From: a virus
Taxonomy: Duplodnaviria > Caudoviricetes
Reading direction: 5' to 3' (one strand)
Length of the DNA stretch: 64,000 nt
IMG/VR virus record: IMGVR_UViG_3300035675_000001
Below, one piece after another: positions 4,360 through 59,509 of the stretch. A program made the translations under genes and the position numbers. Each line of letters opens with the position of its first letter. Position 1 is the stretch's first letter. A model generated the notes under the pieces. That model had not been told where the DNA came from. It saw only the letters and a program-made list of their open reading frames with translations, and ran no database searches.

Positions 4360-4966
4360 GAACATCACGGACAAGGCCGACGTTCACCACTCCTTCAAGG
4401 GAGTGAGCTACCTGGATGTTTACGAATCCTACTTCGCGCCAGTGCGCGAACAGACGCGGGTAGTCCTGGAGCTGGGCGTGCTGGCGGGCCACTCGCTCAT
4501 GACCTGGCGCGACTACTTCCCGAACGCCGAGGTTTGGGGCATCGACATCGACCCGGCCTGCAACATGAACCACGGCCCGCGCACCCATGTCGTGACCGGC
4601 AGCCAGGCCGACCCGGAAGCCATCGCCAAGGCCGCGCCCGGCCAGGAGTTCGACATCGTGGTGGATGACGGCAGTCACCTGGTCGTCCACCTGATCGAGA
4701 GCTTCAAGCTGATCTGGCCCCGCGTCAGGCCGGGCGGTTACTACGTGATGGAAGACCTGGGTTGCACCTACTTCGACACCACGCCCTGGTCGAAGGTCTG
4801 GCCGGGCCAGCACTACAACCCGGAAGGCACCGACTTCAACAACAACCGGGCCAAGCTCAACGAGTTCTTTTTCTCCCTCATCCAGCCATTGGACGGCCTC
4901 TACGGGGACGTGCGCTTCGTCCACTTCCATCCCATGCAATGCTTCATCAGGAAGGTGGAGCTGTAG
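4331..4966 (+). CDS. Class I SAM-dependent methyltransferase (Methyltransf_24-like, sugar O-methyltransferase type)
   Basis: VLELGVLAGHS, GIDID, DIVVDDGSH and GGYYVMED motifs. Confidence 0.85.
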   Translation: MRELQALGVKNITDKADVHHSFKGVSYLDVYESYFAPVREQTRVVLELGVLAGHSLMTWRDYFPNAEVWGIDIDPACNMNHGPRTHVVTGSQADPEAIAKAAPGQEFDIVVDDGSHLVVHLIESFKLIWPRVRPGGYYVMEDLGCTYFDTTPWSKVWPGQHYNPEGTDFNNNRAKLNEFFFSLIQPLDGLYGDVRFVHFHPMQCFIRKVEL

Positions 4967-5222: not shown

Positions 5223-5251
5223 TTGACGTGGGACTCGGTTTCGTTTACATT
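5223..5251 (+). promoter_or_regulatory. Class I sigma70-like promoter (early)
   Basis: TTGACG, 17 nt, TACATT, 10 nt, ATG5262; AT-rich UP-like tract upstream. Confidence 0.8.
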
Positions 5252-5261
5252 CATCACCAGA

Positions 5262-7034
5262 ATGAATGCTACGAACATCACAGTCGAGTCACTGGAAGCC
5301 CTCCTTCACTGGAGCAAACCCACCATCGTCACCAACGCTCGCGGCGTCCGCCAGCTCCGCACTGCCGCTCCCCACGGCCAGTTCTGGTCCCTGTGGCGCA
5401 GCAGCAAACCCGCCCTCCAGGCCCTCGGCGTCAGCCCGAAGCTGGACGGCGACACCTGGATCATCAACTGGTATCAAGACCCGCCCCAGGCTGCCGCCGC
5501 TGCCGCCCGCCCCTTCGTCCTTCCTGAGACCAAGTATGCCTGGTCCGACGAGCAGGTCGCCATCTTCAAGTGGTTCCACTCCGGCACCGGCTCCCTCGTA
5601 GTTCGCGCCCGCGCTGGCACGGGCAAGACCACCACCATCAAGGCCGCGTTCAGCGTCGCCCCCGAAGAAAAGATGCTCTACGCCGTGTTCAACAAGAAGA
5701 ACCAGGTCGAAGCCGCCCAGGCCATCACCGACCCCCGCGTCGAGATCAAGACCCTCCACAGCATCGGCTTCATGTTCATCCAGCAGGTCTGGCCGCAGTC
5801 CAAGCCCACCGACGACGTTGAGATCGACCGCGTGGAGAAGATCGTCGGCGAGCAGCAGCCCAAGGAAGTGAAGACCCAGGTCAAGAAGCTCGTGGCCTTC
5901 GCCAAGAACACCCTCATCAACCCGACCCTGGAGGAGATGGTTGACCTCGCCGAAGAACGCGACATCGAGTGCGCCAACTTCGAGGCCCCGGAGAACGGCG
6001 GCTGGAACCGCATCATGCTCGCCCGCGCTGCCCTCCGCGTGATGGAGCTGTCCAAAGTCCGCGACGCCCAGGGCCGCATCAGCTTCAACGACATGGTTTG
6101 GCTCCCGGTCGCCATGAACTGGACCCGCGCCTGGTTCGACCTCGTGGTTGTGGACGAAGCCCAGGACATGAACCTGCCGCAGCTCACGATGGCCAAGGCC
6201 GCGTGCAAGCACGGTGGTCGGGTGTGCGTGGTGGGCGACGACCGCCAGGCCATCTATGGTTTCCGTGGCGCGGTCAGCGACGGCATGGACATGATGCGCC
6301 GGACCCTCAACGCCGCCGAGCTGGGCCTGACCATCACCTACCGCTGCCCCAAGAAGGTTGTGGCCCTCGCCGCCGCCATCGTCCCCGACTACCGCGCTGC
6401 TGACGCCGCCCCCGAAGGCGAAGTGCTCTCCTGCGAAGCCACGGCCATCAACGCGCAGGTTGTGGTGGGCGACGCGATCCTCAGCCGCTCCAACGCCCCG
6501 CTGATGCCGCTGTGCCTCTCCCTCCTCCGCAAAGGCATCCCGGCCCGCATCGAAGGCCGCGACCTGGGCAAAGCCCTCCTGGACATCGTGGAGAAGCTGA
6601 ACGCCCGCAGCGTCCCCGACTTCCTCCGCAAAGTCGAGCACTGGGCCGAGAAGCAGACCAACCGCTTCATGGACACCAAGCACTTCGAGGAGAAGGCCGA
6701 ACAGATTCAGGACCAGGCCGAAACCCTCCGCGCCATCGCCGAAGGCGCGAGCAGCGTCACCGAGGTCAAGAACCGCCTGACCTCGCTGTTCCAGGACACC
6801 GACGCGAACAGCAAGCCGACCGTGACCCTGAGCACGACCCACAAGGCCAAGGGCCTGGAGTGGACGAAGGTTTACATCCTGACCAAGACCTTCAACAAGA
6901 AGCGCCCCATCAACGCCGCGCCCCAGTCGCCCGAAGCCGCCGCCCAGGAGGCCAAGGAGCAGGCCAACATCTACTACGTGGCCATCACCCGCGCCAAGAT
7001 GACCTTGGTGCTCGCCAACGGGGACGTGCGGTAA
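5262..7034 (+). CDS. uvrD: UvrD/REP-family superfamily 1 helicase
   Basis: ARAGTGKTT (Walker A), VDEAQD, VGDDRQAIYGFRGA, TYRCP, STTHKAKGLEW, YYVAITRA. Confidence 0.93.
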   Translation: MNATNITVESLEALLHWSKPTIVTNARGVRQLRTAAPHGQFWSLWRSSKPALQALGVSPKLDGDTWIINWYQDPPQAAAAAARPFVLPETKYAWSDEQVAIFKWFHSGTGSLVVRARAGTGKTTTIKAAFSVAPEEKMLYAVFNKKNQVEAAQAITDPRVEIKTLHSIGFMFIQQVWPQSKPTDDVEIDRVEKIVGEQQPKEVKTQVKKLVAFAKNTLINPTLEEMVDLAEERDIECANFEAPENGGWNRIMLARAALRVMELSKVRDAQGRISFNDMVWLPVAMNWTRAWFDLVVVDEAQDMNLPQLTMAKAACKHGGRVCVVGDDRQAIYGFRGAVSDGMDMMRRTLNAAELGLTITYRCPKKVVALAAAIVPDYRAADAAPEGEVLSCEATAINAQVVVGDAILSRSNAPLMPLCLSLLRKGIPARIEGRDLGKALLDIVEKLNARSVPDFLRKVEHWAEKQTNRFMDTKHFEEKAEQIQDQAETLRAIAEGASSVTEVKNRLTSLFQDTDANSKPTVTLSTTHKAKGLEWTKVYILTKTFNKKRPINAAPQSPEAAAQEAKEQANIYYVAITRAKMTLVLANGDVR

Positions 7035-7042
7035 CCCAACCA

Positions 7043-7064
7043 GGGGGCGGGGCAACCCGCCCCC
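7043..7064 (+). terminator. GC-rich hairpin after the helicase (probable terminator or processing site)
   Basis: GGGGGCGGG-GCAA-CCCGCCCCC; U-tract is weak. Confidence 0.55.
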
Positions 7065-7079
7065 TCAACTCTTACACCT

Positions 7080-7769
7080 ATGATTAAACGCAAGATCACA
7101 GCCCCGGCGATGAAGAACCGCCAGGGCCTCCGCGTCGGCAAGACCATCCTGGAAGTGACCTACTTCGAGGACCGAGTGGGCGTGCCCTGGGCCGAGATGC
7201 GGCCCCTGGTCGCCTCCGCCTTCCGCCACGTCCAGAAGGAAGCCTTCCGCGACCACGGCACCGAGTTCATTCGCCGGTCCCGCGCCTGGAACACGACGCT
7301 CTTTCTCCACAAGAGCAGCCGTGGCTGGTGGGGCCGCAACGTCGGCAGCCGCTCGCGGGTCTTCATCGGCCCGCTCCACCCGGAGCCACGCCAGACCGTC
7401 TATCCCAAGTTCAAGGACATGCCCGTGTTCTGGCACATGGACTGGCGGGAGCACCTGGTCGGCCTCGTGGCGCACGAGCTGTGGCACCGCTGGCAGCCCG
7501 GCCACGGCAAGCCCGCCGAGATGATGTGCGAGACCGTCGAGCAGGACGCCATCGACACCTACCGGCGCGAGCAGGGTTACACCTTCAAGCCAGTGACCGT
7601 TCACCACGAGCCGGGCGAGTTCGCCCGCTGCCCCCAGGAAAGTTGCGTGGATTGCAGGCAGCCCACGCCCTACTGGATGGAGGACCAGCACACCCCGCTG
7701 TGCCAGGGCTGCTGCGACAAGCGCAACCTGGCGATGGCCAAGGCAGCCCGGAATGGAGGCCAGCCGTGA
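7080..7769 (+). CDS. Hypothetical protein with HExxH motif and C-terminal Zn finger
   Basis: VAHELWH; CVDC...LCQGC. Confidence 0.65.
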   Translation: MIKRKITAPAMKNRQGLRVGKTILEVTYFEDRVGVPWAEMRPLVASAFRHVQKEAFRDHGTEFIRRSRAWNTTLFLHKSSRGWWGRNVGSRSRVFIGPLHPEPRQTVYPKFKDMPVFWHMDWREHLVGLVAHELWHRWQPGHGKPAEMMCETVEQDAIDTYRREQGYTFKPVTVHHEPGEFARCPQESCVDCRQPTPYWMEDQHTPLCQGCCDKRNLAMAKAARNGGQP

Positions 7770-14008: not shown

Positions 14009-14029
14009 CCATCAACATAATTGTAAACA

Positions 14030-14631: not shown

Positions 14632-15190
14632 GCGCAACGTCGCCCTGGCCCTCCAACGCTTCGACCAGGAATGGGCCGGGGAGGTTGCCCGCGAGAAGAT
14701 CGTATCCACCTGCTCCAAGGGCTGCTCAGCCTGCTGCTCCGAGCCGGTCTATTGCTCCAAGCTGGAGGCCCGGCTCACGCTCCGCTACCTGCCTGATGCC
14801 GAGCGGCCCGGCGTGATCGAGCGCACCCGCGCCTGGCTCACCCAGGCCAAGGCTACGGACATCCTGGACATCGCCGAGCCACACGTCATGGACTACCTGG
14901 CGTGCGGCTTGGTCTGCCCATTCCTCAAGGACAAGCTCTGCCTGGTCTATCCCAACCGGCCCTTCGGCTGCCGGTCCCACTGCGCGGTCGGCCCGGCCAT
15001 CAAGTGCTCGACCGACCGGCTCCACCAGACCTACGCCCGGTCGCCCAAGCTGATCGCGGTCACCGGCGCAGTGATCTTTAGCCAGCAGTCCGAGGGCGAC
15101 CACCTGGGCGTCTGGCTCTCCCGCCTGCTGCTCCAGGCTCCGGTCCAGAGCGAGGCCCATGTGTCGGTGGATGACCTGCGTGGTAGCTAA
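14621..15190 (+). CDS. YkgJ-family Zn/Fe-chelating domain protein
   Basis: CSKGCSACC...CPFLKDKLCLVYPNRPFGCR. Confidence 0.8.
   Translation: MNRERNVALALQRFDQEWAGEVAREKIVSTCSKGCSACCSEPVYCSKLEARLTLRYLPDAERPGVIERTRAWLTQAKATDILDIAEPHVMDYLACGLVCPFLKDKLCLVYPNRPFGCRSHCAVGPAIKCSTDRLHQTYARSPKLIAVTGAVIFSQQSEGDHLGVWLSRLLLQAPVQSEAHVSVDDLRGS
15184..15189 (+). promoter_or_regulatory. Class III motif variant TAGCTA
   Basis: TAGCTA-AGGC-GTG15194. Confidence 0.55.
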
Positions 15191-15193
15191 GGC

Positions 15194-15478
15194 GTGAAAA
15201 AGATCGTAGGTGAAGTTGTAAACGAAAATGACCCGCCCCAGGGAACGGAGCGGGTCACCGAGCCTACTACTACGCTGGCTCCCACACTCACCTATGCCGA
15301 TGAGCGCGAGCGCCAGAGAGCTTTGGAAGTCATCGAGGACTTGATCCAGCGGACTTCTTCGGACGCCTCGCGGGCACTTTACGTGCAGCAGCGCGAGAAG
15401 ATTTTGCGGGCTTCGATCCAGGAGAAACCTTTCCAGGCTGTGCCGACACTGGGGCCTTTCCCTTCCCACGGGCGATGA
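15194..15478 (+). CDS. Hypothetical protein
   Basis: 94 aa behind a class III motif; converges on and overlaps the minus-strand gene. Confidence 0.5.
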   Translation: MKKIVGEVVNENDPPQGTERVTEPTTTLAPTLTYADERERQRALEVIEDLIQRTSSDASRALYVQQREKILRASIQEKPFQAVPTLGPFPSHGR

Positions 15479-27094: not shown

Positions 27095-27841
27095 CTAAGT
27101 AGATGTGTAGTCTCCGAAAGCCGTGAAGGCCGATGTGCCGTTGGTATCCACGAAAGTTCCCCAGTAAGGCACCAGGAAAGTTGCTGTCCCGTAAGCCTGG
27201 ATCGCCGTGGTTCCGTTGGCGTCCGTGCCCGCGTCCGACGAGAAAACAACCAGGTTGGCCGTGCCGTAAGCTGCCCAGCCCAGCGTGCCCATGCTGTCCG
27301 TGCCGATGTCCAGATAGACCGTGACCGCCAGGTGGGTGCCAAACACGCTCCAGCCAATCGTTCCCGTGCTGTTGGTCCCCATGTCGCCGCCCGGCACAAT
27401 GGCGTTGAAGTGGGTGCCGAAAGCCGCGATGGCCACGTTGCCATTGTTTACAAAATTGAACAGGAGATACTGGCTGATGTTTCCTGGGTTCAGGTCCATG
27501 CCCAACCGGTCGGTGCCGACCAGGCTGGTGATGTCCACTTCGATGACCACGGGGAAGGCGGTCCCGAATGCCTCGATGCCCACGCTGCCATTCTGGTCAA
27601 CCCCGATGTCGGGCACGCCCTCCTGATAGTAGCTGCCGAAGGCGCTGCCGGTGCTCAGGACGCCGAACTGGGGAGGGAAGTCGCCGCCCACGCCCACCCA
27701 CAACCCGTCCTCGTGGAACGAGCCAGCGTCCACGATCTGCGGCGGCGGGAATGTGATCCAGTTGTCCTCTGGTTCCCTGAACACGGAGGACTGCGGGTGA
27801 CCGATGTTCCGGTCACGAAAGCTGCCACGATCTTCTGCCAC
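27095..27841 (-). CDS. Putative structural protein with Gly/Thr-rich beta repeats
   Basis: 248 aa; repeated D..GT..I.AFG units; class III motif upstream. Confidence 0.65.
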   Translation of the reverse strand: MAEDRGSFRDRNIGHPQSSVFREPEDNWITFPPPQIVDAGSFHEDGLWVGVGGDFPPQFGVLSTGSAFGSYYQEGVPDIGVDQNGSVGIEAFGTAFPVVIEVDITSLVGTDRLGMDLNPGNISQYLLFNFVNNGNVAIAAFGTHFNAIVPGGDMGTNSTGTIGWSVFGTHLAVTVYLDIGTDSMGTLGWAAYGTANLVVFSSDAGTDANGTTAIQAYGTATFLVPYWGTFVDTNGTSAFTAFGDYTST

Positions 27842-27844
27842 GCC

Positions 27845-28105
27845 TTAACTACCAGGCGCGGGAACGGGCGGGAGCTTGAAGACCAGGATGCGGGGCTTGT
27901 CGGGGCTGCGGTATCCGTCCGTCGCGCAATCAAATCCCTGGGCGACCAGGATGTAGCGCATGATCTGCGCCTCGCTCATCGTCAACAAAACAGCGTCACC
28001 CGGCTCCATGCTCTTGGCGAGGGAAACCAAGTCATCGAGCCGGGTGCGCTTTCGGGGCCTGGGGATGGGAGGGGGCCAACGGTAAATCTGGAACTCACCA
28101 CTCAC
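27845..28105 (-). CDS. Hypothetical small protein (possible DNA binder)
   Basis: 86 aa; SMEPGDAVLL pattern. Confidence 0.55.
   Translation of the reverse strand: MSGEFQIYRWPPPIPRPRKRTRLDDLVSLAKSMEPGDAVLLTMSEAQIMRYILVAQGFDCATDGYRSPDKPRILVFKLPPVPAPGS
27846..27851 (-). promoter_or_regulatory. Class III motif TAGTTA
   Basis: TAGTTA-AGGC-GTG27841. Confidence 0.7.
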
Positions 28106-28797
28106 TTGATCGGCTGCGGCCTCGGCCCTGGACCGCAGATGGTGGTGATGGCATTGACGTGGCCGTCCAGGCGCTCGCGCTCCTGCTCATAGAGCCGGTG
28201 GAGCTGTGGGTCTCGCGTGGCCCGGTAACCCAAGGCGAGCATGGTCAGGTAGGCCAGCTCTGGCGACTTGGACATCTTGGCCACGAACAGCTTGAACTGC
28301 TCGATGTCCTGGAGCGAAGCCCTGGCCGCTTCCTCGCGCTCGGCCCAGCCTTCCGCCGCCGCTTCGTTGATGACACCGACTGGACCCAGCTTGCGCCGAC
28401 GCTCCAGCTCGGTTTGGATTTGCTCCTGGCAGGTCTGGCTGACAGGCTTGCCGCCGTTCTTCTTGGCTTCTTCCATAGCGAACACTTCCATCAAAGTTTT
28501 GCCCTGTGGCGGAGCCTGACCCGTGGCTCGGTTCCTCCCGTTGACCCACGACTCTGGCCATTTGATTTCGCTCGCGGCGGCGTCCTTGTTGGCCAACCAC
28601 CACGTCGCGTCCTCTATCTGCCACAGGGCATTAAAGACTTCTGCGGGCAGATCGGGCTTCCACTGCTCCATCAGCGCCTCGCGCAAATTGGTAGCCCAGC
28701 TCGTCTGCTTCAAGGTTCCGAACAACCTGGCCCGGCTGCCGGGTTGCGGCAGGTTGGTCAGATCGCTCACATCACACTGAATCAGCTTCTCACCCAT
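28102..28797 (-). CDS. Hypothetical protein
   Basis: 231 aa; LFGTLKQTSWATNLR...ATWWLAN pattern. Confidence 0.65.
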   Translation of the reverse strand: MGEKLIQCDVSDLTNLPQPGSRARLFGTLKQTSWATNLREALMEQWKPDLPAEVFNALWQIEDATWWLANKDAAASEIKWPESWVNGRNRATGQAPPQGKTLMEVFAMEEAKKNGGKPVSQTCQEQIQTELERRRKLGPVGVINEAAAEGWAEREEAARASLQDIEQFKLFVAKMSKSPELAYLTMLALGYRATRDPQLHRLYEQERERLDGHVNAITTICGPGPRPQPIK

Positions 28798-28840
28798 GCA
28801 AGACTTTGTTTACAATTTCAATGTGGCACAAGAAAGAAAT

Positions 28841-28982
28841 GGACGGCGTGCCGCGCCAAGGTGCGGGGGCTTGGCGAACCGGAGCTGCCGATCCATCGGC
28901 AGTTCGGCTCCTTTGTTTGTCACGGTGGGCCTTCAACCCGCAGGCCGTAGCCCACTCGATCAGCCTCGCTTACACGCCGTCC
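28841..28982 (-). ncRNA. Candidate structured ncRNA (multi-branch, complementary loops)
   Basis: 10-bp closing helix GGACGGCGTG/CACGCCGTCC, three internal hairpins, TAGTTA motif at 28988-28993 just upstream, T-rich tail. Confidence 0.55.
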
Positions 28983-28990
28983 AAAAGTAA

Positions 28991-29518
28991 CTACCGGGTC
29001 GGAGCCTTGGCCGGTTTAGGGTCGGGCATCGGCCCACCAGGCGGCACGTCTTTCTGCTCGATGGTCTTCTTGATCTTGGCGCTCGGACCCTTCAAGACCT
29101 CAACGCGCTGCTCGTCGAACCACTGCGGGTCGATGGGCTTGCCATCCTTGAGGTCTTCGGATTCCACGATGACGCGGGTGCAACCATGCAGCCACTCGCA
29201 GCGCCCGACGACGATGCCCTTGTAGCTGGTGATGGTGTCTTTGACTTGGCTTCCTAATTCGATCATGTCTCTCTTTGGGTTGATGGTTAACTTGCCGTAA
29301 TACTTGGGATTGATCGCGGTCTCGGCGAACCGCTTCACAAATTTCTTGGGGATGGTGATGGGCTGCTTCTTGTGGGTGTGGAGGATGTTGCCGGGCAGGT
29401 CGATCCTGATGCCATCGGCATACACAGTCTCGTGGCCCTTCTGCTCCAGCTTCTCGGCTTCGACGTGCGCGACGCCGACGATGCCCTCAATCTCCATCAT
29501 GATCTCGTAGCGATTCAT
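28991..29518 (-). CDS. Hypothetical protein (a second start at 29266, MIELGSQVKD..., is possible)
   Basis: C-terminal half KGIVVGRCEWLHGC...WFDEQR looks like a common small phage protein. Confidence 0.6.
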   Translation of the reverse strand: MNRYEIMMEIEGIVGVAHVEAEKLEQKGHETVYADGIRIDLPGNILHTHKKQPITIPKKFVKRFAETAINPKYYGKLTINPKRDMIELGSQVKDTITSYKGIVVGRCEWLHGCTRVIVESEDLKDGKPIDPQWFDEQRVEVLKGPSAKIKKTIEQKDVPPGGPMPDPKPAKAPTR

Positions 29519-42710: not shown

Positions 42711-42863
42711 AGCCCCACCGAGCAGGGCCTTGTCACTTCCAACCGGATGGCGTATCGGCGTTGCCGCCGACCACTTCACTTCCATCCTTCGCTCCAAACG
42801 CCTGGGAGAGTGAGTTCCCGACTTACGGGGCTGGAGTGAAAGGCATAAGCGCCCGATGGGGCT
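42711..42863 (-). ncRNA. Candidate structured ncRNA
   Basis: Closing stem AGCCCCA/TGGGGCT followed by a U-tract; internal GGATGG/CCATCC and TCGGCG-GCAA-CGCCGA; CTCCA/TGGAG and CCCG/CGGG stems. Confidence 0.5.
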
Positions 42864-43308
42864 AAGTGTTGACCACCGTGAAAGGTGGGTCTTTGCGGTA
42901 GTCGATCCAACTGCCAGAGGGACGGTATCTCGCCAGAAAGCCGAGGTTGGCTTCCTTGGTCGCCATGCGTAGCGCGATGATGACCTGGGGCGGGAGCGCC
43001 TTGAGATAGTCGTCCCACCAGTTGAACCAACGCCAGAAGAAGCTGGAGAACTGCCCGTAGCGTTCCACGGGCAGCACGATGTCAAAGCGCGTGGTTGAGT
43101 CAGCCACATAGCAGAGCTGACTCAACAGCGCGTTGAATTTTTGGCCGAACTCCTCGTTGCTCAACTCCTCTTTGTGGAGCGCAGCGTGGATGGTCTTGAG
43201 TTCATTCACCAAGCCAAAGCAGGCCATGAACACGGAGACCTCGGCGGCATTAACCGCGAACTCTTTGTCTTCGGTTCGGACCTTCTTTGGCTTGGTGGTG
43301 GTTTTCAT
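42862..43308 (-). CDS. Hypothetical protein
   Basis: 148 aa ORF. Confidence 0.65.
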   Translation of the reverse strand: MKTTTKPKKVRTEDKEFAVNAAEVSVFMACFGLVNELKTIHAALHKEELSNEEFGQKFNALLSQLCYVADSTTRFDIVLPVERYGQFSSFFWRWFNWWDDYLKALPPQVIIALRMATKEANLGFLARYRPSGSWIDYRKDPPFTVVNT

Positions 43309-43580
43309 GCGACCAGTTGTTTCTCGTCTTCCAGAGAGAAGAACTGAAACGCACGAGCAATTACCTCGTCGCGTCGCATGTTTACCGCATCAAGGCCCTG
43401 CTTGGCCAGTTCGGCAACCATGTTCACGGTGAGGTTGCTATACCGCTTCTGGATGCCCCTTCGATTTTTGAGAGTGCGCGTTCCAGACTCGCGCATCTTG
43501 CTCTTGAAAAATGGATCACCGGAGAGCACCTGCTCAACGACATCCATTCGTCCGGGAGCTGATAGACTTGTGATGTTCAT
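43305..43580 (-). CDS. Hypothetical protein (possible ribbon-helix-helix-like regulator)
   Basis: MNITSLS...; C-terminal LTVNMVAELAKQG...RRDEVIARA. Confidence 0.5.
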   Translation of the reverse strand: MNITSLSAPGRMDVVEQVLSGDPFFKSKMRESGTRTLKNRRGIQKRYSNLTVNMVAELAKQGLDAVNMRRDEVIARAFQFFSLEDEKQLVA

Positions 43581-46298: not shown

Positions 46299-46327
46299 AA
46301 TGTAAACGAAACCCCGTTCGCCGTCAA
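46299..46327 (-). promoter_or_regulatory. Class I sigma70-like promoter, close copy of the 5.2 kb promoter
   Basis: TTGACG, 17 nt, TACATT, 10 nt, ATG46288. Confidence 0.8.
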
Positions 46328-58639: not shown

Positions 58640-59509
58640 CGTCTTGGCTTCCAGGACGGACTGCTCCAACCGATCAAATTCCGCCTGCTGGTCTTTGGTG
58701 ATCCACCGGTCTGTGTCCAAGGGCCTCTCCTGTTCAATGGCAATCTTGTCGATGTGCCTGATGAAGAATCCCAGGTCGCGCTTGGCTTTGATCTGGTAGA
58801 ACATCGGGTCGTTGTCATCCGGCTGGTCAACTCCGTCCACATTCATCCACATCCGGTAAGCGTAGGCGACCAGCTCGTTCCCACCGATGTCCTGGGTCCG
58901 GCAGACTTCCTCCACCCGCTCCTGGTATCCGCGCTTCATCATGAAGGGCAGTCCGAAGCGAGCTTGGAATCCCTTGCTCCACTTGTTCAGGAATCTTTGA
59001 GCGTGTTGGAAAGCCGTCTTCTCCGCCGAAGGCGCAACACCACCAGCACCACTCTGACCGGAACCACTGCCCGCGCCAGCGGCAGTGGTTTTGGTCTTTG
59101 GTGATTGTTTAAGACTGGGGAATCTTAGTGCCCGGCTGTCCGGGGCCGGTAATCCGGGCATGGTGAGACCTTTTTTGACCGGCCCACCCATGCCCGGTAA
59201 ACCGGGCATAGAAGGCACAATTAAAGTGTAAACATTTCCCTTCCAGACACCACCAAGCCGCTCTTTTTCAACGAACAGAAACCCCTTCTTCTGGAGTTCA
59301 TACTGGTAGGTTTGCAAGGTTGACCTGGCGCAGCCCATGTTCGATTTCAGGGTATCCTGACTTGGAAAAGGCTGCGGACTATCGGGGCTGGCATAGCTCT
59401 GGAGTATGCCCCACAGCACCCGCGCACCAAATGACAGCTCTGCGTTCCTCAAAACGCTCTTAGCGGGAATGGAGCTGTGCCACTCCGCGCCGTATTTCAA
59501 CATACTCAT
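58637..59509 (-). CDS. HTH replication-initiator-like protein
   Basis: LRNAELSFGARVLWGIL...FPSQDTL..NMGCARSTL...ELQKKGF. Confidence 0.65.
   Translation of the reverse strand: MSMLKYGAEWHSSIPAKSVLRNAELSFGARVLWGILQSYASPDSPQPFPSQDTLKSNMGCARSTLQTYQYELQKKGFLFVEKERLGGVWKGNVYTLIVPSMPGLPGMGGPVKKGLTMPGLPAPDSRALRFPSLKQSPKTKTTAAGAGSGSGQSGAGGVAPSAEKTAFQHAQRFLNKWSKGFQARFGLPFMMKRGYQERVEEVCRTQDIGGNELVAYAYRMWMNVDGVDQPDDNDPMFYQIKAKRDLGFFIRHIDKIAIEQERPLDTDRWITKDQQAEFDRLEQSVLEAKT

What the first reader, a model, noticed from the sequence alone, without database searches (positions are those of the whole stretch)
28841..28993. Candidate late ncRNA: four-way junction with complementary GCGGG/CCCGC loops
Seen on the minus strand: the TAGTTA motif, 5 nt, then a 10-bp closing helix GGACGGCGTG...CACGCCGTCC and a T-rich tail. 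Hairpin 1 is GGCCT-GCGGGTTGA-AGGCC. Hairpin 2 is TGCCGAT/ATCGGCA with two mutually exclusive extensions (GGAGC/GCTCC or CGAAC/GTTCG). Hairpin 3 is CGCCAAG-CCCCCGCAC-CTTGGCG. Loops 1 and 3 are complementary (GCGGG with CCCGC). Inference: a pseudoknotted or oligomerising RNA, reminiscent of phi29 pRNA hand-in-hand loops, or a switch. I do not recognise the family.
Basis: partly seen in the sequence, partly recalled or inferred. Interest (0 to 1): 0.7.

Follow-up and report, generated by a model that had tools for sequence, protein, structure and literature searches.

The report
Conserved structured RNA in jumbo phages
The 145-base gap between two phage genes encodes a real folded RNA. It is kept, with matching base-pair changes, in a small group of uncultured wetland jumbo phages, always just upstream of the same unknown gene; it fits no known RNA family, and its fold is not the loop-kissing four-way junction first proposed.

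Summary
The fold is more stable than shuffles (z -3.2) but not exceptional for this window.

The decisive evidence is comparative. A covariance model built from the window and one close relative found full-length homologues in other metagenomic phage contigs, giving 8 distinct variants. All lie directly upstream of homologues of the 231-aa gene at 28102-28797.

- **Closing helix:** 4 of 11 pairs carry double compensatory changes and none is broken.
- **Junction strands:** they are invariant, while the neighbouring gene falls to 41% protein identity.
- **Peripheral hairpins:** they change size and carry GNRA or UNCG tetraloops on the gene-sense strand.

Comparative data favour two nested three-way junctions over a four-way junction. 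TAGTTA occurs upstream only in the window variant, and the U-rich tail is missing in one subgroup.

There is no Rfam, tRNA or conserved-ORF explanation, and no RNA-seq data. My best reading is a new cis-acting leader or attenuator RNA for the downstream gene, probably bound by a protein or ligand. That function is inferred, not shown.

The parts
28840..28983 (-). Whole structured RNA element, from the first to the last base of closing helix P1
   Evidence: cmsearch with R1 scores 193 bits here and 60-69 bits for full-length group B homologues. Single copy in the 109.6-kb record.
28988..28993 (-). TAGTTA box; its TAG (28991-28993) is the stop codon of the upstream gene
   Evidence: There are 10 sites in the window against 2.8 expected, and 8 of them lie 4-7 nt before ATG/GTG. 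The box is not kept in front of the element in L009, L016, L035, L046, L036 or L041.
28973..28983 (-). P1 5' strand, UGGACGGCGUG
   Evidence: Pairs with 28840-28850. Four pairs have changes on both sides in group B (GGGAGAGGGUG/CACCCUCUCCC), one A-U becomes G.U in group C, and no cell is unpaired.
28963..28969 (-). GCGAGGC, part of the invariant strand (A)AAGCGAGGCUGAUC; proposed 5' strand of helix PJ
   Evidence: Invariant in groups A and B. RNAalifold pairs it with GCCAAGC across a GA/AA internal loop. No covariation is possible because both strands are invariant.
28923..28958 (-).
   Evidence: MFE fold. L009 keeps the pairing through G-C to G.U and U-A to U.G changes and indels. In group B it is replaced by CCC-GAAA/GCAA-GGG, with the second pair flipped from G-C to C-G.
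28911..28922 (-). Invariant junction strand UGACAAACAAAG(GA), ending in a Shine-Dalgarno-like AAGGA(G)
   Evidence: Identical in all six group A and B variants.
28876..28910 (-).
   Evidence: MFE and alifold folds. In group B it is a hairpin of about 60 nt with a GNRA apex. The G-C and A-U base pairs next to GCCAAGC are kept. Within group B there are compensatory changes (U-A/C-G, and G-C/G.U/A-U).
28869..28875 (-).
   Evidence: Invariant in groups A and B. Forcing the PJ model costs 0-2 kcal/mol in group A and gains 6-12 kcal/mol over the hairpin-3 model in group B.
28851..28866 (-). P4 hairpin CCGC-ACCUUGGC-GCGG, abutting the P1 3' strand; its loop holds CCUU
   Evidence: Alifold. In group B it is 7 bp (CCGCGCU/GGCGCGG). 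The changes in L016 and L046 keep pairing and one change in L036 breaks a loop-proximal pair. Group C has a different hairpin, CUGCG/CGCAG, at the same place.
28840..28850 (-). P1 3' strand, CACGCCGUCCA
   Evidence: As for the P1 5' strand.
28829..28839 (-). U-rich tail UUUCUUUCUUG directly after P1
   Evidence: A terminator-like site at P1 3' is listed. L009 (CUCCUUUUUG) and group C (UUUUGUAAACUUUUU) also have a U-rich tail; group B does not (CUCUAUGACC and similar).
28808..28814 (-). TGTAAAC(A) word between the element and the start codon
   Evidence: Present at this position in 5 of 7 lineages, 3-9 nt before ATG in four of them. The word occurs 33 times in the window against 2.0 expected, on both strands.
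28102..28797 (-). Downstream gene Y (231 aa, MGEKLIQCDV...), function unknown, with no Shine-Dalgarno sequence
   Evidence: Homologues P0001-P0007 and P0013-P0017. No Pfam or PHROG hit. AlphaFold pLDDT 71, with no PDB match at E<=0.001.
28991..29518 (-). Upstream gene (175 aa as called on public contigs)
   Evidence: the C-terminal part hits phrog_16275. In group B its homologue lies two genes further upstream.

Best explanation
The element is a genuine, conserved, structured RNA of a new family. It is transcribed in the sense of the genes and belongs to the 5' side of one conserved phage gene of unknown function (gene Y, 28102-28797).

**Consensus fold.**
- An 11-bp closing helix, P1.
- Inside P1, a three-way junction (P1, an AAA joiner, helix PJ = GCGAGGC/GCCAAGC, a CC joiner, hairpin P4).
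- PJ in turn encloses two variable hairpins, P2 and P3, joined by invariant strands.

**Proposed mechanism (inferred, not shown).** It acts in cis as a leader or intercistronic regulator of gene Y.
1. The invariant core binds a factor. That factor is a phage protein, possibly the gene Y product itself, or a small ligand.
2. Binding stabilises P1.
3. In the window, L009 and group C, P1 is followed directly by a U-rich tract, so it can attenuate transcription.
4. In two group B variants, the P1 3' strand ends 10-11 nt before the SD-less start codon, so it can limit initiation there.

In the window's phage, the TAGTTA box 5 nt upstream may additionally start a late transcript exactly at P1.
For: **Shown:**
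- The 193-nt gap is non-coding. The small ORFs inside it differ in frame between window, L009, L016 and L035 (read directly).
- Homologues were found by model R1 at E of 1e-13 to 1e-16 for group B and 2e-6 for group C.
- P1 has 4 of 11 pairs with double changes. Overall 98-99% of cells are paired, against 86-88% in shuffles (0 of 500) and 37-51% when partners are slid.
- There are further compensatory changes in P2 and P3.
- G.U pairs and GNRA/UNCG/UUCG tetraloops occur only on the gene-sense strand.
- Four blocks of 12-16 nt are identical between groups A and B, whose gene Y proteins are 41% identical.
- Within group B the element is 89-95% identical, against 66-84% for the adjacent gene.
- The element stays next to gene Y while the upstream neighbour changes: a 175-aa gene in the window, a 103-114-aa gene in group B, and a 191-aa gene in group C.
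- Relatives without the element have gene Y fused to its upstream neighbour at a 1-3 nt gap or an overlap.

**Inferred:**
- P1 followed by a U tract, or by the start codon, serves as the output.
- A bound factor exists.
Against: - There is no expression data of any kind.
- The spacer between P1 and the start codon is variable (10-66 nt) and often holds a TGTAAACA word. If that word is a promoter, mRNAs for gene Y would start downstream of the element and lack it.
- The U-rich tail is absent in group B.
- Group C keeps P1 and the junction topology but has lost the invariant core, so the core is dispensable in at least one lineage.
- Complete or near-complete relatives of 192 and 238 kb lack the element altogether.
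- PJ, P4 and any pseudoknot rest on invariant bases, so covariation cannot test them.
- Most covariation comes from one deep split between groups A/C and B, so it reflects few independent events.
Confidence: 0.45

Rival explanations
1. It is a stand-alone small RNA, made late in infection from the TAGTTA box and ended by P1 plus the U-rich tail. This roughly 150-nt RNA with paired ends would act in trans or as a partner of a phage protein.
For: - In the window, TAGTTA ends 5 nt before P1. That is the same spacing that separates the box from start codons at 8 other sites.
- P1 is followed by AUUUCUUUCUU.
- Fully paired termini and a conserved core suit a stable RNA.
- T4 itself makes small RNAs C and D of unknown role (PMC3014915).
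Against: - The box is not conserved in front of the homologues, which have AAGTGA, GAATGA, GAACGA or GGTAAA.
- Group B has no U tract, and there the upstream ORF reads 19 codons into the element.
- Strict linkage to gene Y is not required of a trans-acting RNA.
- That TAGTTA is a promoter is itself unproven.
Confidence: 0.2
2. It is only an elaborate intrinsic terminator, or a 3'-end protecting structure, for the upstream transcription unit. The interior would have no specific function.
For: - A GC-rich 11-bp stem is followed by a U-rich tail in the window, L009 and group C.
- Group C keeps little more than P1 and the tail.
- A second gap at 42711-42863 also has a long closing stem followed by U6.
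Against: - Invariant junction strands of 12-16 nt across lineages with 41% protein identity are not needed for a terminator.
- Group B has no U tract.
- The element follows different upstream genes but always the same downstream gene.
Confidence: 0.15
3. It is a structured bridge for long-range translational coupling. Ribosomes that end the upstream ORF at or inside the element would open P1 and be handed over, across folded P3 and P4, to the SD-less start of gene Y.
For: - In group B the upstream ORF is homologous to the gene that is tightly coupled to gene Y in element-free relatives. It terminates at GGA-UGA at the base of P3.
- Gene Y lacks an SD in all variants.
- T4 uses hairpins to bridge split ribosome-binding sites in genes 25 and 38 (PMC3014915).
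Against: - In the window and L009 the upstream stop lies before P1, and in group C it lies 44 nt upstream.
- No conserved frame continues past the stop, so a gene-60-type bypass is excluded by the differing frames in L016 and L035.
Confidence: 0.08
4. It is a phi29 pRNA-like oligomerising RNA that uses complementary loops, for example in packaging.
For: In the window, UGCGGG (28942-28937) is complementary to CCCGCA (28867-28862).
Against: - The complementarity is absent in group B, where P2 is CCC-GNRA-GGG.
- In the window the GCGGG bases lie in a UNCG-capped stem.
- Rfam's pRNA model does not match.
Confidence: 0.02
5. It is a chance fold, or a DNA-level site such as a protein-binding palindrome or a mobile-element remnant, rather than an RNA.
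For: - The opposite strand folds about as well.
- The stability is not exceptional for this GC-rich window.
- The element is absent from several relatives.
Against: - Compensatory changes keep the pairing.
- G.U pairs and tetraloops are strand-specific.
- It is single copy and always at the same locus.
- No copies were found in bacterial genomes; the two pattern hits lie inside unrelated bacterial genes and do not match the model.
Confidence: 0.03

Closest known systems
Structured 5' leaders bound by a protein or ligand (autoregulatory r-protein leaders; the T4 gene 32 and gene 43 translational operators; riboswitch aptamers closed by a P1 helix)
   Same: - It lies directly upstream of one gene family.
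- A closing P1 helix covaries.
- Junction strands are invariant and peripheral hairpins vary in length and carry tetraloops.
- What follows P1 varies between lineages: a U tract, a start codon 10 nt away, or an extra hairpin in L036.
   Different: - No ligand or binding protein is known.
- No alternative anti-terminator pairing was found.
- There is no match to any Rfam model.
- It is known only from a handful of uncultured phage contigs.
Intrinsic (Rho-independent) terminators
   Same: A GC-rich stem is followed directly by a U-rich tract in the window, L009 and group C.
   Different: - The 'loop' is about 120 nt with a conserved multi-helix core.
- The U tract is interrupted (AUUUCUUUCUU) and is absent in group B.
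T4 mRNA structures at translation initiation regions (inhibitory hairpins of genes e, soc, 49 and I-TevI; bridging hairpins of genes 25 and 38; review PMC3014915)
   Same: It is a phage-encoded RNA structure immediately upstream of a gene in a T4-like genome. A late-promoter-like word lies beside it.
   Different: - The start region of gene Y is not paired with the element and is not conserved.
- The element is far larger.
- The SD-like AAGGA(G) lies inside the fold, about 100 nt from the start codon.
phi29 pRNA (Rfam RF00044)
   Same: It is a phage RNA of similar size that, in the window only, has two mutually complementary segments.
   Different: - The loop complementarity is not conserved.
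- The fold is different.
- There is no model match.
- The phage is not phi29-like.
Y RNA / YrlA
   Same: A small RNA whose 5' and 3' ends form a long stem that encloses a branched module, in a phage said to carry Ro60.
   Different: - No Rfam YrlA or Y RNA hit even at E<=10.
- P1 is a perfect duplex without a bulged Ro-binding motif.
- No tRNA-like module was found by ARAGORN.
- It lies among virion-module genes, not in the tRNA cluster.

Membership tests
Any Rfam 15 family | Covariance-model score at or above the family's gathering threshold | tested here: not met
   There were 0 matches in the whole window at gathering score. At E<=10 on 28780-29010 the only hits were miRNA and xrRNA noise on the opposite strand, at 12-21 bits against thresholds of 50-74.
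phi29 pRNA | Two loops with conserved, covarying intermolecular complementarity | tested here: not met
   The GCGGG/CCCGC complementarity is present only in the window and L009. Group B has CCC-GNRA-GGG in place of hairpin 1.
phi29 pRNA | Sequence and structure match to the family model | tested here: not met
   No hit.
Intrinsic terminator | Stable GC-rich stem followed within 0-2 nt by a run of U | tested here: inconclusive
   Met in the window (AUUUCUUUCUU), in L009 and in group C. Not met in the four group B variants. Termination itself cannot be tested with these tools.
Riboswitch | Conserved aptamer core with covarying helices | tested here: met
   P1, P2 and P3 show covariation and the junction strands are invariant.
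Riboswitch | A defined ligand and a ligand-dependent alternative structure | not testable with these tools
   No ligand is suggested by gene Y, whose function is unknown. No anti-terminator pairing was identified.
YrlA / Y RNA | Rfam model match, a Ro60-binding bulged stem and a tRNA-like module | tested here: not met
   No hit at E<=10. P1 is a perfect duplex. ARAGORN found nothing.
tRNA / tmRNA | Cloverleaf detected by ARAGORN | tested here: not met
   0 genes in the window.
T4 gene e-type inhibitory leader | A helix that sequesters the SD or start codon of the downstream gene | tested here: not met
   In the folds, the start region lies outside the structure. The spacer is 10-66 nt long and not conserved.
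Small protein-coding gene | An ORF conserved in frame among homologues | tested here: not met
   The 48-aa TTG ORF and the 27-aa ATG ORF of the window are in different frames, or absent, in L009, L016 and L035. Indels are not multiples of three.

The most novel reading that the evidence does not exclude
The invariant core (GCGAGGCUGAU ... UGACAAACAAAGGA ... GCCAAGCCCC ... CCUU) is a new aptamer class carried only by jumbo phages. It would sense a metabolite or phage protein and use its own closing helix P1 directly as the terminator stem or start-site gate. That would time expression of a virion-module gene that has no ribosome-binding site.
Probability: 0.12. Interest if true: 0.8.

Novelty: new variant of a known kind. 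Interest (0 to 1): 0.5.

Why it matters
Structured regulatory RNAs of large uncultured phages are almost unexplored. This is a compact candidate of about 145 nt with real covariation and an invariant core. It also comes in natural variants that differ in output: a U tract, an adjacent start codon, or a lost core.

If the core binds a ligand or protein, it would be a new phage-specific regulatory RNA class. It would also give a handle on how SD-less late genes are controlled in these T4-like jumbo phages. If it is only a decorated terminator, it is of local interest.

The family is narrow, with 8 variants that are all metagenomic, so its importance should not be overstated.

Tried and rejected
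- **Expression data:** no RNA holder was listed for the region. Laying three same-study metatranscriptome contig sets gave zero cover. This is not evidence either way.
- **IMG/VR scans:** exact pieces of the element and a gapped core pattern gave 0 hits. Both flanking proteins gave 0 relatives. The gene Y alignment found only the element-free 238-kb contig.
- **Genome contigs pattern:** the two hits lie inside bacterial xylulokinase-like and argininosuccinate-synthase-like genes and do not match the model, so they are chance.
- **GenBank phages:** no DNA or protein match.
- **Model R1 on ten IMG/VR relatives,** including complete 192-kb and 238-kb genomes: no match.
- **Paralogues in the window or the 109.6-kb record:** none. 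The second candidate at 42711-42863 is not the same family.
- **Earlier findings, by sequence:** nothing.
- **Gene Y function:** no Pfam or PHROG hit, nothing useful from the Atlas, a pLDDT 71 model, and only weak AcrIE7-like rows at E=0.3.
- **Small-ORF readings:** rejected because the frames are not conserved.
- **T4 gene-60-type bypass:** group B has GGA-UGA followed by a hairpin and a GGA 47 nt downstream. I rejected this because the frames after the 'landing' site differ between L016 and L035.
- **Whole-window z-score scan with shuffles:** it timed out. The GC-corrected MFE scan that replaced it shows the element is not a thermodynamic outlier when it is not framed exactly.
- **Gap after the TAGTTA site at 4964(+):** not significantly structured, z = -0.7.

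Full report
**What is in the sequence.**
- TAGTTA lies at 28993-28988, and its TAG is the stop codon of the upstream gene.
- Five bases later come GGACGGCGTG (28982-28973) and its complement CACGCCGTCC (28850-28841), followed by ATTTCTTTCTT.
- Between the two strands lie the three hairpin strings.

The element fills a 193-nt gap between a 175-aa gene (28991-29518) and a 231-aa gene, called gene Y here (28102-28797); both are on the minus strand. RNAfold gives -75.4 kcal/mol with z = -3.2. The other strand folds as well (z = -4.1). A GC-corrected scan of the whole window shows many regions at least as stable. Folding energy alone would therefore not carry the claim.

**Context.** The window is the minus strand of a 109.6-kb IMG/VR virus record estimated 62% complete. 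Identical copies of gene Y occur on wetland and freshwater metagenome contigs of up to 222 kb. Neighbouring genes include a tail-fibre-like protein, helicases and a topoisomerase. Earlier notes of this scan call it a T4-like jumbo phage with its own sigma-like factors, Ro60 and Y RNAs; I did not check those claims.

**What it is not.**
- No Rfam family matches, at gathering score or at E<=10.
- ARAGORN finds no tRNA or tmRNA.
- The ORFs inside the gap are not conserved in frame among homologues, and indels are not multiples of three.
- It is single copy.
- No copies were found in bacterial genomes or GenBank phages.

**Homologues.** A contig from another sample (L009) is 86% identical overall. 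It keeps the element with an 87-nt perfect run, while the spacer to the start codon drops to 50-68% identity. A covariance model from these two sequences (R1) then found full-length matches upstream of more distant gene Y homologues.
- **Group B** (L016, L035, L046, L036): 60-69 bits, E of 1e-13 to 1e-16.
- **Group C** (L040, L041): a 91-nt form at 32 bits.

This gives 8 distinct variants. Gene Y of group B is only 41% identical in protein to the window's.

**Comparative structure.**
- *P1:* UGGACGGCGUG/CACGCCGUCCA in the window becomes GGGAGAGGGUG/CACCCUCUCCC in group B. That is four double changes with none unpaired. Group C has one A-U to G.U change.
- *Whole structure:* 98-99% of cells pair, against 86-88% in shuffles (0 of 500) and 37-51% when partners are slid by 1-3 columns. 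These counts come from a model-fitted alignment and from few independent events, so they lean towards the structure. P1, however, does not depend on the alignment.
- *P2:* a 36-nt hairpin with a C(UGCG)G tetraloop in the window. L009 keeps it through wobble changes and indels. In group B it shrinks to CCC-GAAA/GCAA-GGG, with its second pair flipped.
- *P3:* grows to about 60 nt in group B, with a GUAA/GCAA apex and two internal compensatory pairs.
- *Invariant strands between groups A and B:* (A)AAGCGAGGCUGAUC, GUGACAAACAAAGGA, UCGCCAAGCCCC and CUUGGCGCGGCAC.
- *Conservation:* within group B the element is 89-95% identical, while the adjacent gene is 66-84% identical.
- *Strand:* G.U pairs and GNRA, UNCG and UUCG tetraloops appear only on the gene-sense strand. 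This points to an RNA made in the direction of the genes.

**Revised fold.** RNAalifold on both alignments instead predicts two features:
- GCGAGGC pairs with GCCAAGC across a GA/AA internal loop. I call this helix PJ.
- A hairpin P4 (CCGC...GCGG, 7 bp in group B) abuts the P1 3' strand.

Forcing each model gives near-equal energies in group A and a 6-12 kcal/mol advantage for PJ plus P4 in group B. Group C folds into the same outer topology with unrelated inner sequence: P1, an AAA joiner, one long hairpin starting with GCG, a CU joiner, a second hairpin, then P1 again. The consensus is therefore two nested three-way junctions, not a four-way junction. PJ and P4 rest on invariant bases, so they are supported by energy and topology, not by covariation.

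The P4 loop always contains CCUU and the junction always ends in AAGG(A). A pseudoknot between them is possible but is only my inference.

The loop-loop pairing GCGGG/CCCGC exists in the window. It is not conserved, and it involves bases that lie within the tetraloop and inner stem of P2.

**Flanks.** TAGTTA is over-represented in the window (10 sites against 2.8 expected), and 8 sites lie 4-7 nt before a start codon. This agrees with earlier notes that read it as a start-adjacent late promoter. In front of the element, only the window has it. The homologues show AAGTGA, GAATGA, GAATAA, GAACGA or GGTAAA followed by UUU-GG.

The U-rich tail is present in the window, L009 and group C, and absent in group B. 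In L016 and L046 of group B, P1 ends 10-11 nt before the start codon. Gene Y has no Shine-Dalgarno sequence in any variant. Five of seven lineages have TGTAAAC(A) between the element and the ATG.

**Linkage.** The upstream neighbour differs between groups:
- In the window it is the 175-aa gene.
- In group B it is a 103-114-aa gene whose ORF runs 19 codons into the element.
- In group C it is a 191-aa gene.

The group B upstream gene is homologous to the gene that sits 1-3 nt before gene Y in element-free relatives. The element therefore travels with gene Y and occupies what is elsewhere a tightly coupled gene junction. On a short-protein tree, the element-bearing lineages are not monophyletic. 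This hints at an old element with losses, but the tree is weak.

**Mechanism.**
- *Shown:* this is a conserved, folded, non-coding RNA element on the sense strand, tied to the 5' side of gene Y.
- *Inferred:* it works in cis on gene Y. The invariant core would be a binding site for a protein (possibly the gene Y product) or a ligand, and P1 would be the output helix. P1 would act as an attenuator stem where a U tract follows, and as a gate next to the SD-less start codon where it does not.

I put this at 0.45. The rivals are listed below.
- A stand-alone late small RNA (0.2). It fits the window's TAGTTA and tail, but not the homologues.
- A decorated terminator or 3'-end protector (0.15). It does not explain the invariant core or group B.
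- A bridge for long-range translational coupling (0.08). It fits group B only.
- A pRNA-like oligomerising RNA (0.02).
- A chance fold or DNA-level site (0.03).

**Comparison and novelty.** The element behaves like structured leaders and aptamers closed by a P1 helix, and partly like an intrinsic terminator. It fails the tests for pRNA, Y RNA, tRNA-like RNAs and T4 gene-e-type inhibitory hairpins. T4 precedents for RNA structure near start codons are reviewed in PMC3014915. It is a new RNA family of a known general kind, so far seen in only 8 metagenomic variants, and no RNA-seq run holding the region was listed.

Noticed in passing
window, 33 sites on both strands (e.g. 28808-28814 -, 27446-27452 -, 14022-14028 +, 5243-5249 -, 46301-46307 +): The word TGTAAAC(A) occurs 33 times against 2.0 expected, with none of 100 shuffles reaching that number. 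It is usually preceded by AA/AAT. It occurs inside genes and in both orientations. Some sites sit directly before a start codon (TGTAAACaATG at 27452 and 14022). On the other strand some overlap the -10 of TTGACG-N17-TACAnT promoter-like sites (5249, 46301).
   Followed up: partly
window 42711-42863 (-): A second intergenic structure has a 14-bp closing stem followed by UUUUUUG and a branched interior of about 120 nt. It folds at -81.5 kcal/mol, z = -4.5. It has no Rfam match and does not match model R1, so it is a different element from the one studied here.
   Followed up: partly
L036:314-378 (+): One group B variant carries an extra terminator-like hairpin (GGCGCUGGCC...GGCCAGCGCC, then ACGAUUUCAUGUU) between the RNA element and gene Y. 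The other variants lack it.
   Followed up: no
L016:3249-3593 and homologues L035:566-883, L046:1580-1891: The gene upstream of the element in group B ends inside the RNA, at GGA-UGA at the base of P3. Its last 19 codons are therefore encoded by the invariant 5' half of the element. Its homologues in element-free phages (L021:2201-2497, L023:2233-2499) stop 1-3 nt before gene Y.
   Followed up: partly
window 27813-27901 (-): This is the longest perfect run (89 nt) between the window and the 86%-identical contig L009. It spans the junction of the 86-aa gene and the next gene, including a TAGTTAaggcGTG site. The run is as well conserved as the RNA element.
   Followed up: no
window 43001-43350, 59026-59275, 15176-15375, 7001-7150: These windows have the strongest GC-corrected folding energies in the window, 3-4 sd below the regression. 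That is stronger than the element studied here when the element is not framed exactly. I did not examine them further.
   Followed up: no
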